NCBI RefSeq assembly: GCF_003668955.1
Contig: NZ_RAWO01000002.1
Span: 407,605 to 471,604 of the forward strand
Length of the DNA: 64,000 nt
Direction: 5' to 3'
Origin: Corallococcus sp. AB038B
Lineage (GTDB): Bacteria > Myxococcota > Myxococcia > Myxococcales > Myxococcaceae
Shown here: positions 29,536 to 30,643 of the stretch, one piece after another
Numbering within the stretch: position 1 is the first letter of the stretch
Layout: the number at the start of each line of letters is the position of its first letter
Notes under the pieces: generated by a model
Seen by the model: the letters and a program-made list of their open reading frames with translations, nothing else
The model's database searches: none
What the model was told of the DNA's origin: nothing
Translations under genes and position numbers: made by a program

Positions 29536-29574
29536 AGCGCCTCCGAGTCCTGGGACTCGGAGGCGCTTGTGTTT
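29536..29574. terminator. Bidirectional intrinsic terminator (15-bp perfect stem) downstream of nadC
   Basis: agcgcctccgagtcc-tg-ggactcggaggcgct followed by tgtgttt. Lies between converging stops (nadC + strand; small peptide gene - strand). Confidence 0.55.
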
Positions 29575-29800
29575 ACGGCTGGGTGCAGCGCCAGACCCCG
29601 CAGGAACCGCCGCTCGTGCCGCACTCCATCTGGGTCGAGCACGGCTTGCAGGTGCGTGAACAGATCATCTGGACAGCAGACGCCTGGTTATCGGTCGTCT
29701 CCGCCGTCGAGCCGGGAACCATGGCCAGGGCCGTACCCGCCATGATGCCGATGATCAGCGCGAATCCAGGAATCGTCTGCTTCAGTCGCGATGCCTTCAT
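29573..29800 (-). CDS. Small secreted Cys-rich peptide precursor (75 aa; signal peptide + 6-Cys, 42-aa mature region)
   Basis: Signal peptide MKASRLKQTIPGFALIIGIMAGTALAMVPGSTA. Mature region with C-x3-C-x2-C-x5-C-x6-C-x4-C. ORF ends exactly at the terminator. Confidence 0.45.
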   Translation of the reverse strand: MKASRLKQTIPGFALIIGIMAGTALAMVPGSTAETTDNQASAVQMICSRTCKPCSTQMECGTSGGSCGVWRCTQP

Positions 29801-29893
29801 GCTTCCTCCGGGGTGGGTGCCACCGGGTCAGAGCATCCTGGCCCGCTGACAGGAAGGCATTCGAACAGACGCCGCGACGCAATCCAAGGTCAC

Positions 29894-30643
29894 TCAGTCG
29901 CGAATCCAGCGGAAGGTCACGCGGTCGCCACCGGTGAGATGGTCACCCAGACCGCCCAATGAATACATCTCCGTGTGGATTCCGAAGAGCTTGGCCTTGC
30001 TGAAGATGAAGCGCGTGCCCGAGGCCTGCACGATGTTTGTCCACTGCGAATTGGTGTCGCAGTTGGTCGTGGAGGCATTGGGCCAGTTGCACCAGGAGCT
30101 GCCGTTGTGGTTCCAGACGCGCCAGTCATCACCGCCGCCCACGAGGGCGACCTGCTTCCACCACGTCACGTTGGAGCCGGAGTTGAGCCGGAACTCGATG
30201 ACCTCCGGCCCCGCCACGTTGTGCTCGACCTCCGCGAGGATGACGTCGCCATCGGGCAGCTCGGCGTAGGCCACCTTCTCGCGAATCTCCCGGTCGCACG
30301 TGATGCAGGAGTTCTGGATGTCGCTGGGCGACGTGCAGCCGCTCACGCTGTACTCCCCGGAGTACAACGGATTGGTCCCGCAGAAGTAGCACGAGTGGGT
30401 GTAGGGCCCGGTCACGCACTCGGCCACGTACTGCACCGTCGTCTTCCCGAAGTCGTTCCAGGAGAGGGCCGTCGTGGCCATCGCGGTGACGGTGCGACCT
30501 TCGTCCTGCGACGGAGCGACGGGCGCCTGCTCCTGGGGCGCGGCTTCGGGAACGGGCATCTCCTCCGCGGCGGGGCCGCAGCCCACGCCTCCCAGGAGTC
30601 CAAGGACGAGGAACGACGACGCGAGCCGTGCGCGCTGAAGCAT
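29894..30643 (-). CDS. Secreted lipoprotein of unknown function (249 aa), divergent from the MVP gene
   Basis: Start at internal Met with RBS GGAGAAA 6 nt upstream. MLQRARLASSFLVLGLLGGVGC signal/lipobox. Cys-rich N-terminal half, Trp-rich C-terminal half (WWKQV, WRVWNHNGSSWCNW). The 606-aa track ORF is a spurious upstream extension antisense to the MVP gene. Confidence 0.55.
   Translation of the reverse strand: MLQRARLASSFLVLGLLGGVGCGPAAEEMPVPEAAPQEQAPVAPSQDEGRTVTAMATTALSWNDFGKTTVQYVAECVTGPYTHSCYFCGTNPLYSGEYSVSGCTSPSDIQNSCITCDREIREKVAYAELPDGDVILAEVEHNVAGPEVIEFRLNSGSNVTWWKQVALVGGGDDWRVWNHNGSSWCNWPNASTTNCDTNSQWTNIVQASGTRFIFSKAKLFGIHTEMYSLGGLGDHLTGGDRVTFRWIRD

What the first reader, a model, noticed from the sequence alone, without database searches (positions are those of the whole stretch)
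29573..30643. Secreted Cys-rich peptide and Cys/Trp-rich lipoprotein immediately upstream of and divergent from the MVP gene
Two small exported products sit between nadC and MVP. The first is a 75-aa precursor (signal peptide plus a 42-aa six-Cys core, C-x3-C-x2-C-x5-C-x6-C-x4-C) that ends exactly at a strong bidirectional terminator. The second is a 249-aa lipoprotein with WWKQV/WRVWNHNGSSWCNW motifs. Neither has a recognisable family. The six-Cys peptide resembles knottin/defensin-like or RiPP-like scaffolds. Co-regulation with MVP via the shared 250-bp divergent region is possible.
Basis: inference. Interest (0 to 1): 0.5.

Follow-up and report, generated by a model that had tools for sequence, protein, structure and literature searches.

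The report
Two orphan exported myxobacterial proteins beside MVP
Next to a bacterial major-vault-protein gene in Corallococcus sit two real but uncharacterised genes, a small secreted six-cysteine peptide and a tryptophan-rich lipoprotein, and comparison with related genomes shows they come and go independently of each other and of the vault gene, so they are ordinary accessory genes rather than a vault-linked system.

Summary
A 75-aa ORF (29573-29800, minus strand) and a 249-aa lipoprotein ORF (29894-30643, minus strand) lie between nadC and a true MVP gene. The 75-aa ORF has a signal peptide and six Cys spaced 3-2-5-6-4.

Both are real genes, conserved in relatives, and neither matches Pfam, NCBIfam, PADLOC or any PDB sequence or fold.
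- **Peptide family:** about 20 sequence clusters, all identified ones Myxococcaceae, found by an exhaustive search of 1.84 billion proteins. All keep the six Cys and a conserved A/T-L-A/S signal-peptidase site.
- **Lipoprotein family:** 18 clusters. Every named one is Myxococcaceae or Archangiaceae.

The trio is not a unit.
- The lipoprotein is missing or decayed beside MVP in five Corallococcus genomes.
- The peptide is missing in C. aberystwythensis.
- The peptide sits away from MVP in two loci. In C. praedator its whole ~350-bp cassette (own upstream region, ORF, hairpin) was moved.
- Lipoprotein homologues in Myxococcus, Pyxidicoccus and Archangium have neither neighbour.

The peptide fails the published bacterial cis-defensin pattern, has no RiPP maturase nearby, and knottin connectivity could not be tested.

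Best reading: two independent exported accessory proteins of unknown function. Interest is low to moderate.

The parts
29573..29800 (-). pep75: 75-aa precursor of a small exported six-Cys peptide (stop codon 29573-29575)
   Evidence: ORF and translation. RBS and GC3 0.82. Twelve orthologue clusters at 65-99% identity with all six Cys invariant. Mean dN/dS 0.39 over 7 genomes, with in-frame indels confined to the linker.
29723..29800 (-). Signal peptide (aa 1-26): basic n-region, hydrophobic h-region with invariant G12/G18/G22, and a conserved A/T-L-A/S site
   Evidence: Family alignments A1 and A4. The -3/-1 rule is met in 20/20 members at this site. SignalP itself was not available.
29666..29722 (-). 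Variable polar/acidic linker (aa 27-45); 13-40 aa long across the family
   Evidence: This is the most variable segment and contains all the indels. dN/dS is 0.66. The AF2 model has pLDDT <50 for residues 24-41.
29576..29665 (-). 30-aa six-Cys module ICSRTCKPCSTQMECGTSGGSCGVWRCTQP (C-x3-C-x2-C-x5-C-x6-C-x4-C)
   Evidence: The pattern is unique in the window. Spacing is identical in 18/20 family members, and 3-2-4-6-4 in the other two. AF2 pLDDT is 75-85.
29801..29888 (-). pep75's own conserved upstream region (presumed promoter and 5' leader with a small stem-loop)
   Evidence: This region travels with the ORF. It is retained where the lipoprotein is deleted (L023, L024, L025) and in the relocated copy in C. 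praedator (L022), where homology spans window 29539-29888. The leader stem-loop has 2 compensatory pairs.
29535..29568 (.). GC-rich hairpin between convergent nadC and pep75; likely transcription terminator and the 3' end of the pep75 cassette
   Evidence: 14-15 bp stem, about -31 kcal/mol, z -4.35 and -3.46. Conserved in 6 other pep75 loci with compensatory arm changes, and in L001 directly after the lipoprotein gene. Not called by the consensus terminator scan because it lacks a T-run.
29894..30643 (-). lipo249: 249-aa lipoprotein precursor (stop codon 29894-29896)
   Evidence: ORF. GC3 0.89. Family of 18 clusters; every member that carries an organism name is Myxococcaceae or Archangiaceae. 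Alignment A2 has 59 invariant columns, including 8 Cys and 7 Trp.
30578..30643 (-). Lipoprotein signal peptide with lipobox; lipidated Cys22 (codon 30578-30580), +2 Gly
   Evidence: The PROSITE PS51257-type rule is met in the window protein and in 16 of 18 homologues. The other two are N-terminally truncated gene calls.
29897..30481 (-). Folded part of lipo249 (aa 55-249): small Cys-stabilised alpha/beta subdomain followed by a Trp-rich beta-sandwich
30644..30892 (.). Divergent intergenic region between lipo249 and MVP. The MVP-proximal ~150 bp is conserved in all genomes and includes the palindrome GTTCCAGTCTGGAAC at 30748-30762
   Evidence: Alignment A3. The lipoprotein-less alleles L023, L024 and L025 keep window ~30739/30746-31000 and join it directly to ~29891.
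30893..33169 (+). MVP homologue (context only; the stable anchor of the locus)
   Evidence: Pfam MVP_shoulder 9e-45, Vault_2, Vault, Vault_3 and Vault_4. 90-95% DNA identity in other Corallococcus. The C. coralloides homologue was reported in PMC3762200.

Best explanation
These are two independent accessory genes of Corallococcus. Each encodes an exported protein of an uncharacterised, myxobacteria-restricted family. Neither is mechanistically tied to MVP or to the other.

**(i) pep75** is a self-contained ~350-bp unit (window 29535-29888): its own upstream region, the ORF and a terminator hairpin. Its product is taken through the Sec pathway. It is probably cleaved after Ala26, giving 49 aa (~5.08 kDa), or alternatively after Ala33, giving 42 aa. 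It then folds in the oxidising periplasm into a flexible polar tail plus a 30-residue module locked by three disulfides. The inferred function is a protease-resistant mini-protein that binds a target outside the cytoplasm, in the manner of an inhibitor, toxin or ligand. The Cys scaffold is fixed and the inter-Cys loops are free to vary.

**(ii) lipo249** is lipidated at Cys22. It has +2 Gly, so no Lys inner-membrane retention signal. It is tethered by a ~30-residue Pro/Glu/Ala-rich disordered linker. The folded part is an acidic, four-disulfide domain: a small alpha/beta subdomain plus a Trp-rich beta-sandwich. The inferred function is a surface or periplasm-facing binding module, most plausibly for a glycan or other ligand.

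**Shown:** both are coding, the export signals are present, the families are narrowly distributed, and the linkage is labile.
**Inferred:** the cleavage site, disulfide formation, cellular location and binding function.
For: **Both genes are real.**
- Orthologues at 65-99% (peptide) and 40-99% (lipoprotein) identity, with invariant Cys.
- High GC3 and a ribosome-binding site.
- Peptide dN/dS of 0.39, with 0.23 in the signal region and 0.33 in the Cys module.

**Export.**
- The lipobox rule is met in 16/18 homologues.
- A conserved A/T-L-A/S site is present in 20/20 peptide family members.

**Both are orphan families.**
- No Pfam, NCBIfam, PADLOC or PDB sequence hits.
- An exhaustive HMM search of 1.84 billion representatives found only 9 hits for the peptide profile. 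Seven of them belong to the family, all with the same architecture.
- A profile search for the lipoprotein found 18 clusters.

**The genes are independent of each other and of MVP.**
- MVP + lipoprotein + peptide: window, L020, L021.
- MVP + lipoprotein, no peptide: L001.
- MVP + peptide, with the lipoprotein deleted or decayed: L011, L012, L023, L024, L025.
- Peptide at unrelated loci without MVP: L022, where the whole cassette was moved and lies among AHH, Imm and PAAR genes, and L026.
- A paralogue, COCOR_03148, lies between RidA and a permease.
- Lipoprotein homologues at unrelated loci: L002-L010, L013, L015, L016.
- Sources.
Against: - In 8 of the 10 peptide loci examined, the peptide gene still sits within 250-1100 bp of the MVP start. 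The association within Corallococcus is therefore frequent, even if not obligatory.
- No transcript, peptide or localisation data exist.
- SignalP and LipoP were not available.
- The peptide h-region is long (19 hydrophobic residues) and unusually conserved (G12, G18 and G22 invariant). It could be an uncleaved membrane anchor.
- The binding functions proposed are inference from architecture only.
Confidence: 0.7

Rival explanations
1. The three genes form a functional module. The lipoprotein, and possibly the peptide, are co-regulated with MVP from the shared divergent region and act with the bacterial vault-like particle.
For: - The lipoprotein and MVP are divergent and 249 bp apart.
- The full trio is present in the window, L020 and L021.
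- The peptide is adjacent to MVP in 8 of 10 loci.
- The MVP-proximal ~150 bp is conserved and carries a palindrome.
Against: - MVP has no signal peptide, whereas both other products carry export signals and so belong to different compartments.
- The lipoprotein was lost at least twice by different deletions while MVP stayed at 90-95% DNA identity.
- The peptide is absent beside MVP in L001. It sits at loci without MVP in L022 and L026.
- The lipoprotein family in Myxococcus, Pyxidicoccus and Archangium has no MVP nearby.
Confidence: 0.07
2. pep75 is not secreted. Instead it is a small bitopic inner-membrane protein. The conserved N-terminal helix, with its G-x5-G-x3-G face, stays as an anchor. 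The C-x3-C-x2-C...C module in the periplasm binds a metal or senses redox state.
For: - A 19-residue hydrophobic stretch with invariant G12, A14, L15, G18, G22 and L25 persists down to 32% overall identity. That is unusual for a mere signal peptide.
- The signal region has the lowest dN/dS, 0.23.
- The module carries little charge (net +2; whole mature peptide 0), unlike typical cationic antimicrobial peptides.
Against: - A canonical small-x-small site follows the h-region in 20/20 members, with Gly at -5.
- Six Cys in an oxidising compartment are expected to be disulfide-bonded, not free to bind metal.
- There is no partner gene such as a transporter or sensor in any context.
Confidence: 0.2
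3. pep75 is a bacterial knottin- or defensin-type antimicrobial or toxin peptide used in predation or competition.
For: - Six invariant Cys lie in about 26 residues, with variable loops between them.
- The producer is a predatory myxobacterium.
- In C. praedator the cassette sits in a polymorphic-toxin and T6SS effector island.
- Bacterial defensins do exist in Corallococcus (PMC11561630).
Against: - The cis-defensin pattern is absent in 20/20 members; there is no C-x-C.
- No Pfam knottin, defensin or toxin hit at E<=10.
- The peptide is near-neutral rather than cationic.
- The knotted I-IV, II-V, III-VI connectivity could not be examined.
Confidence: 0.15
4. pep75 is a RiPP precursor, for example lanthipeptide-like. 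Its Ser/Thr- and Cys-rich core would be modified by enzymes encoded elsewhere.
For: The 30-aa module has 8 Ser/Thr and 6 Cys.
Against: - No LanB/C/M, radical-SAM, YcaO or peptidase/transporter genes lie within about 12 kb in the window.
- None lie next to any of 11 homologous or paralogous loci.
- The N-terminus is a classical Sec signal with a signal-peptidase I site.
- Only Ser50 is nearly invariant among the Ser/Thr positions.
Confidence: 0.03
5. lipo249 works with the genes on the other side of MVP, not with MVP itself. These are the HmuY-like lipoprotein and the 551-aa HExxH protein with a MYXO-CTERM-like tail. The role might be cell-surface nutrient or haem capture.
For: - All four MVP loci with lipo249 (window, L001, L020, L021) also have the HmuY-like and 551-aa pair.
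- Four of the five loci without lipo249 lack that pair or retain only a remnant.
Against: - CA054B (L025) keeps the HmuY-like and 551-aa pair without lipo249.
- The sample is only 9 genomes and is confounded by phylogeny and shared deletion alleles: L023, L024 and L025 share the same lipoprotein deletion boundaries.
- Lipoprotein homologues elsewhere have no HmuY-like neighbour.
Confidence: 0.12

Closest known systems
Bacterial cis-defensins of myxobacteria (corallosins and xanthusin-1, PMC11561630; AMSIN homologues, PMC8819291)
   Different: cis-Defensins are defined by C...C-x3-C...C...C-x-C, which underlies the Cys-stabilised alpha/beta motif. pep75 has C-x3-C as its first pair and no C-x-C. 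The regex fails in 20/20 members. There is no sequence or fold match.
Inhibitor cystine knot (knottin) mini-proteins
   Same: A module of about 30 residues with six Cys, conserved Gly residues, variable inter-Cys loops, and secretion.
   Different: The defining knotted connectivity was not testable here. The loop lengths 3-2-5-6-4 are not a typical knottin framework (my own recollection, not tested). No Pfam knottin family is hit.
Generic bacterial outer-membrane lipoproteins with a disordered tether and a beta-sandwich domain; best structural neighbours are DUF2436 of P. gingivalis PrtH (9isp) and the PepT1/2 extracellular Ig-like domains
   Same: A lipobox, a Pro/Glu/Ala-rich linker and a beta-sandwich fold.
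SitA/SitI-type polymorphic lipoprotein toxin cassettes of myxobacteria (my own knowledge of Vassallo et al. 2017; not read here)
   Same: A myxobacterial lipoprotein in a variable region. A lipoprotein with a DUF6310 C-terminus plus a DUF5953 gene follows pep75 in other Corallococcus.
   Different: lipo249 is conserved along its whole length with no polymorphic C-terminal toxin domain. It has no conserved downstream immunity-like gene.

Membership tests
Sec/signal-peptidase-I secreted precursor (pep75) | Basic n-region, hydrophobic h-region, and small residues at -3 and -1 of the cleavage site | tested here: met
This is a rule-based check only; SignalP was not available.
Bacterial lipoprotein (lipo249) | Lipobox: PROSITE PS51257-type rule {DERK}(6)-[LIVMFWSTAG](2)-[LIVMFYSTAGCQ]-[AGS]-C, with K/R near the N-terminus | tested here: met
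   MLQRARLASSFLVLGLLGGVGC matches. So do 16 of 18 homologues; the 2 misses are truncated gene calls. The +2 residue is Gly or Ala, never Lys.
Bacterial cis-defensin (CS-alpha/beta) | Cys pattern C-x(2,18)-C-x3-C-x(2,12)-C-x(4,17)-C-x-C, as used in PMC11561630 | tested here: not met
   0 of 20 family members match.
Bacterial cis-defensin (CS-alpha/beta) | Sequence or fold similarity to known defensins | tested here: not met
Knottin / inhibitor cystine knot | Three disulfides with I-IV, II-V, III-VI connectivity, one of them threading the ring | not testable with these tools
   Six invariant Cys are present.
Knottin / inhibitor cystine knot | Match to a curated knottin sequence family | tested here: not met
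   No Pfam family is hit at E<=10.
RiPP precursor | A modifying enzyme, protease or transporter genes co-located with the precursor | tested here: not met
   The window neighbours are a chaperonin, kinases, a GGDEF protein, CheW, ValRS, NadC, MVP, an HmuY-like protein, a LysM/VgrG3-like protein, a hydroxylase and an M1 peptidase. None of 11 homologue or paralogue loci carries a maturase.
MVP/vault-associated gene module | Conserved linkage of the three genes across genomes that carry them | tested here: not met
   Four different configurations occur beside MVP, and both genes also occur at MVP-free loci.
MVP/vault-associated gene module | Co-expression from the shared divergent region | not testable with these tools
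   There are no transcript data. No sigma-70-like promoter is called in 29300-31100.
Polymorphic lipoprotein toxin (SitA-like) for lipo249 | A conserved N-terminal escort region, a variable C-terminal toxin domain and an adjacent immunity gene | tested here: not met
   The most conserved part of lipo249 is its C-terminus, GGDRVTFRW. Downstream genes differ at every locus.

The most novel reading that the evidence does not exclude
The pep75 family would be a previously undescribed class of bacterial three-disulfide secreted mini-proteins. It would be distinct from the known bacterial cis-defensins and restricted to predatory Myxococcaceae. It would have a new Cys framework (3-2-5-6-4), possibly knotted, and an extracellular bioactivity such as protease or enzyme inhibition, or toxicity in predation or kin competition. 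Its repeated placement next to polymorphic toxin/immunity cassettes (DUF6310/DUF5953 and the AHH/Imm/PAAR island) would then be meaningful.
Probability: 0.2. Interest if true: 0.5.

Novelty: new variant of a known kind. Interest (0 to 1): 0.27.

Why it matters
If the peptide family proved to be a stable, bioactive disulfide scaffold, it would add a second type of Cys-rich mini-protein in myxobacteria, unrelated to defensins. Myxobacteria are already mined for anti-infectives. The family would also supply a compact new framework for peptide engineering.

The practical value of this check is mainly negative. The two genes should not be read as partners or cargo of the bacterial MVP homologue. 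Anyone studying bacterial vault-like proteins in Corallococcus can treat them as variable flanking genes.

The comparison also maps the MVP locus as a conserved anchor flanked on both sides by indel-prone accessory genes.

Tried and rejected
- **Family libraries.** Pfam, NCBIfam and PADLOC scans of both proteins, and Pfam scans of every aligned member at E<=10, gave nothing consistent.
- **PDB by sequence.** Profile searches gave nothing for the lipoprotein and one chance-level hit (E 0.33) for the peptide.
- **Fold searches.**
  - Foldseek against the PDB gave no hit at E<=0.001.
  - The afdb50 library was unavailable.
- **Rfam** on 29400-31000 gave only a sub-threshold miRNA chance hit.
- **Consensus promoter and terminator scan** made no calls.
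- **Hairpin as a dispersed repeat element.** Rejected. It occurs once in the window, and among the 16 loci held at that point the exact motif was found only in L001, at the orthologous position.
- **Lipoprotein and HmuY-like/551-aa co-loss as evidence of coupling.** Weakened by L025 and by shared deletion alleles.
- **Small Cys-rich neighbours in L013 and L019 as family members.** They are unrelated small lipoproteins.
- **Sigma-54-like reading of TGGCAC upstream of pep75.** Rejected by eye: the -12 element is missing and the spacing to the ATG is wrong.
- **Literature.** Searches for knottins in myxobacteria and for DUF6310/DUF5953 found nothing relevant.
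Full report
**What is there.** On the minus strand between nadC (28626-29504) and the MVP homologue (30893-33169) lie two ORFs exactly as described.
- A 75-aa ORF at 29573-29800.
- A 249-aa ORF at 29894-30643.

Pfam confirms the flanks. nadC matches the QRPTase N- and C-terminal domains. MVP matches MVP_shoulder plus Vault, Vault_2, Vault_3 and Vault_4.

The small ORF has a GGAGG ribosome-binding site and GC3 of 0.82; the large one has GC3 of 0.89. The spacing C-x3-C-x2-C-x5-C-x6-C-x4-C occurs once in all six frames of the window. 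Both proteins are 99% identical to Corallococcus exiguus proteins.

**The hairpin.** A 14-15 bp perfect GC-rich stem sits at 29535-29568, four nucleotides beyond the peptide's stop codon. Its energy is about -31 kcal/mol, and the surrounding 100 nt fold better than all or nearly all of 200 shuffles. The consensus terminator scan does not call it, because no T-run follows it on the peptide's strand.

In six other Corallococcus loci the same hairpin follows the peptide gene. There it shows compensatory arm changes and a TTTTC tail. In C. aberystwythensis it directly follows the lipoprotein gene. It is not a dispersed repeat. I read it as the terminator of this transcription unit.

**Both genes are real and conserved, and both are orphans.**

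*Peptide.*
- It has 12 orthologue clusters at 65-99% identity. All six Cys are invariant, and all indels fall in the linker.
- Across seven genomes, mean dN/dS is 0.39 overall. By region it is 0.23 for the signal, 0.66 for the linker and 0.33 for the Cys module.
- An exhaustive profile search of 1.84 billion representative proteins returned only nine hits. Seven belong to the family: one orthologue representative and six more distant relatives of 73-95 aa. One of the six represents the cluster of the C. coralloides paralogue COCOR_03148; the only other one carrying an organism name is from a Myxococcaceae MAG.
- All relatives share one architecture: a conserved N-terminal hydrophobic segment, a linker of 13-40 aa, and the same Cys spacing. 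Two members have 3-2-4-6-4 instead.

*Lipoprotein.*
- It has 18 clusters. Every named one comes from Corallococcus, Myxococcus, Pyxidicoccus or Archangium. There is a sharp gap below them even with a profile query.
- Fifty-nine columns are invariant, including eight Cys and seven Trp.

*Database searches.* Neither protein, nor any aligned relative, hits Pfam, NCBIfam, PADLOC or a PDB sequence in a meaningful way.

**Export signals.** lipo249 fits the PROSITE-type lipobox rule (LLGGVGC), as do 16 of 18 homologues. The residue after the lipidated Cys is Gly or Ala. By my own knowledge of Myxococcus lipoprotein sorting, that argues against inner-membrane retention.

For pep75, the tripeptide A/T-L-A/S ending at residue 26 satisfies the -3/-1 rule in 20 of 20 family members. 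Cleavage after Ala26 would give a 49-aa product of 5081.7 Da with three disulfides.

The h-region is long and unusually conserved, with invariant G12, G18 and G22. An uncleaved membrane anchor therefore remains a live alternative.

**Structure.** The AF2 model of lipo249, built from 17 sequences, has three parts:
- a disordered tether at residues 1-54;
- a confidently predicted small alpha/beta Cys-rich subdomain (pLDDT above 90 for residues 71-120);
- a beta-sandwich (pLDDT 55-86).

**The trio is not a unit.** I compared 9 further MVP loci and 14 loci of homologues elsewhere.

| Configuration | Loci |
|---|---|
| MVP + lipoprotein + peptide | window, Corallococcus sp. CP114039 (L020), strain EGB (L021) |
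| MVP + lipoprotein, no peptide (hairpin directly after the lipoprotein) | C. aberystwythensis (L001) |
| MVP + peptide, lipoprotein deleted | C. coralloides (L012, 16-codon remnant), C. interemptor (L011, decayed C-terminal remnant), CA049B, AB011P and CA054B (L023-L025, clean junction) |
| Peptide without MVP | C. praedator (L022), a metagenomic myxobacterium (L026) |
| Lipoprotein homologues without MVP or peptide | C. exercitus, C. interemptor, C. aberystwythensis, Myxococcus, Pyxidicoccus, Archangium, all in unrelated contexts |

Sources.

In L023-L025 the junction joins window ~30739/30746 to ~29891. In C. praedator the homology covers exactly window 29539-29888. That span is the upstream 85 bp, the ORF and the hairpin, and the copy sits among AHH nuclease, Imm and PAAR genes.

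The peptide therefore behaves as a self-contained ~350-bp cassette with its own upstream region, and the lipoprotein behaves as a separate indel. MVP is the stable anchor, at 90-95% DNA identity. It has no export signal, whereas both neighbours do.

- **Defensin.** The regex used to define bacterial cis-defensins, a class that includes Corallococcus 'corallosins' (PMC11561630), matches none of the 20 family members. The C-x-C element is missing.
- **RiPP.** No maturase, protease or transporter lies within about 12 kb in the window or at any homologue or paralogue locus. The N-terminus is also a Sec signal.
- **Knottin.** The count of six Cys fits. The defining connectivity could not be examined, and no knottin family in Pfam is matched.

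**Most likely mechanism.** The following is inferred, not shown.
- pep75 is exported by Sec, cleaved, and oxidised to a three-disulfide mini-protein with a flexible polar N-terminal tail. The fixed Cys scaffold and variable loops suggest a stable binding module that acts outside the cytoplasm.
- lipo249 is a lipid-anchored, acidic, four-disulfide protein. Its Trp-rich beta-sandwich is most plausibly a ligand- or glycan-binding domain on the cell envelope.
- Neither function is established.

A weak lead is that lipo249 is present only where the HmuY-like lipoprotein and the 551-aa HExxH protein on the other side of MVP are also present (4 of 4 loci). However, CA054B keeps those two genes without lipo249, and the sample is small and phylogenetically confounded.

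**Verdict.** The defensin and RiPP analogies fail the tests that could be run. The knottin analogy is untested. The suggested link to MVP is contradicted by comparative genomics.

These are two orphan exported proteins of narrow taxonomic range in a variable region next to a conserved MVP gene. The peptide family is a modestly interesting new Cys framework. Nothing here is surprising to a specialist in myxobacterial genomes, which encode many small Cys-rich exported proteins (for example).

Noticed in passing
window 29535-29568 and everything below 29539: DNA homology to the seven other Corallococcus genomes that carry pep75 beside MVP stops at the hairpin (29539). In C. exiguus the neighbour beyond it is nadC-valS. 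Five of those genomes instead carry all or part of a DUF6310 lipoprotein / DUF5953 pair, and at least six carry a 229-aa gene, rdgC and PBP4 beyond. AB011P carries an aminotransferase gene. The hairpin therefore marks a recurrent rearrangement breakpoint.
   Followed up: partly
L020 5314-6995; L023 5309-6990; L025 8302-9983; L012 6411-7241: The DUF6310 protein is a lipoprotein (LLVFSAC lipobox). Its C-terminal domain looks like a PD-(D/E)xK nuclease (FDAL...WEIKT). It is followed by an overlapping DUF5953 gene. C. coralloides keeps only DUF5953, and EGB keeps only fragments. This looks like a SitA/SitI-style toxin-immunity cassette in families that Pfam lists as unknown, but it was not tested.
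   Followed up: partly
window 33255-35869: The HmuY-like lipoprotein (Pfam HmuY 1e-13) and a 551-aa protein form an indel on the far side of MVP. The 551-aa protein has a HEFFH zinc-protease motif and a Cys plus hydrophobic plus Arg-rich C-terminal tail resembling MYXO-CTERM. The pair is absent in C. coralloides, C. interemptor and CA049B, reduced to a fused remnant in AB011P, and present in four other genomes.
   Followed up: partly
window 30748-30762: The perfect palindrome GTTCCAGTCTGGAAC lies in the ~150 bp upstream of MVP that is conserved in all genomes. It sits immediately next to the boundary of the lipoprotein deletion allele. It is a possible operator for MVP. In C. aberystwythensis it is disrupted by an 11-bp gap.
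   Followed up: no
window 29816-29840 (approx.), minus strand: A small stem-loop lies in the pep75 5' leader between the presumed promoter and the ribosome-binding site. Two base pairs are kept through double changes across seven genomes. The overall covariation support is weak.
   Followed up: partly
window ~28150-28616 (C-terminus of ValRS, 25122-28616): Valyl-tRNA synthetase carries a long C-terminal tail of Lys/Ala/Pro-rich repeats ([23 protein letters not shown]...), reminiscent of histone H1-like tails.
   Followed up: no
window 20750-21418: A 222-aa protein has an EncFtn-like / rubrerythrin-type ferritin domain. This is the domain type found in encapsulin cargo proteins. It sits about 10 kb from the MVP gene.
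   Followed up: no
window 36959-38707: A LysM plus T6SS VgrG3-like C-terminal (peptidoglycan hydrolase) protein is conserved near MVP in several Corallococcus genomes.
   Followed up: no
L017 6001-6279 (C. coralloides COCOR_03148): This is a 92-aa paralogue of pep75 with a longer linker and Cys spacing 3-2-4-6-4. It lies between a RidA-family gene and an amino-acid permease. Corallococcus genomes therefore carry at least two members of the family.
   Followed up: partly
L013 2201-2461 (-) and L019 6344-6577 (+): These are unrelated small Cys-rich lipoproteins (86 and 77 aa), each within a few hundred bp of a conserved operon of an ECF sigma factor, an unknown gene and a C14 peptidase. L013 is the M. 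fulvus lipo249-homologue locus and L019 is a MAG pep75-homologue locus. Small Cys-rich exported proteins appear common in these genomes.
   Followed up: no
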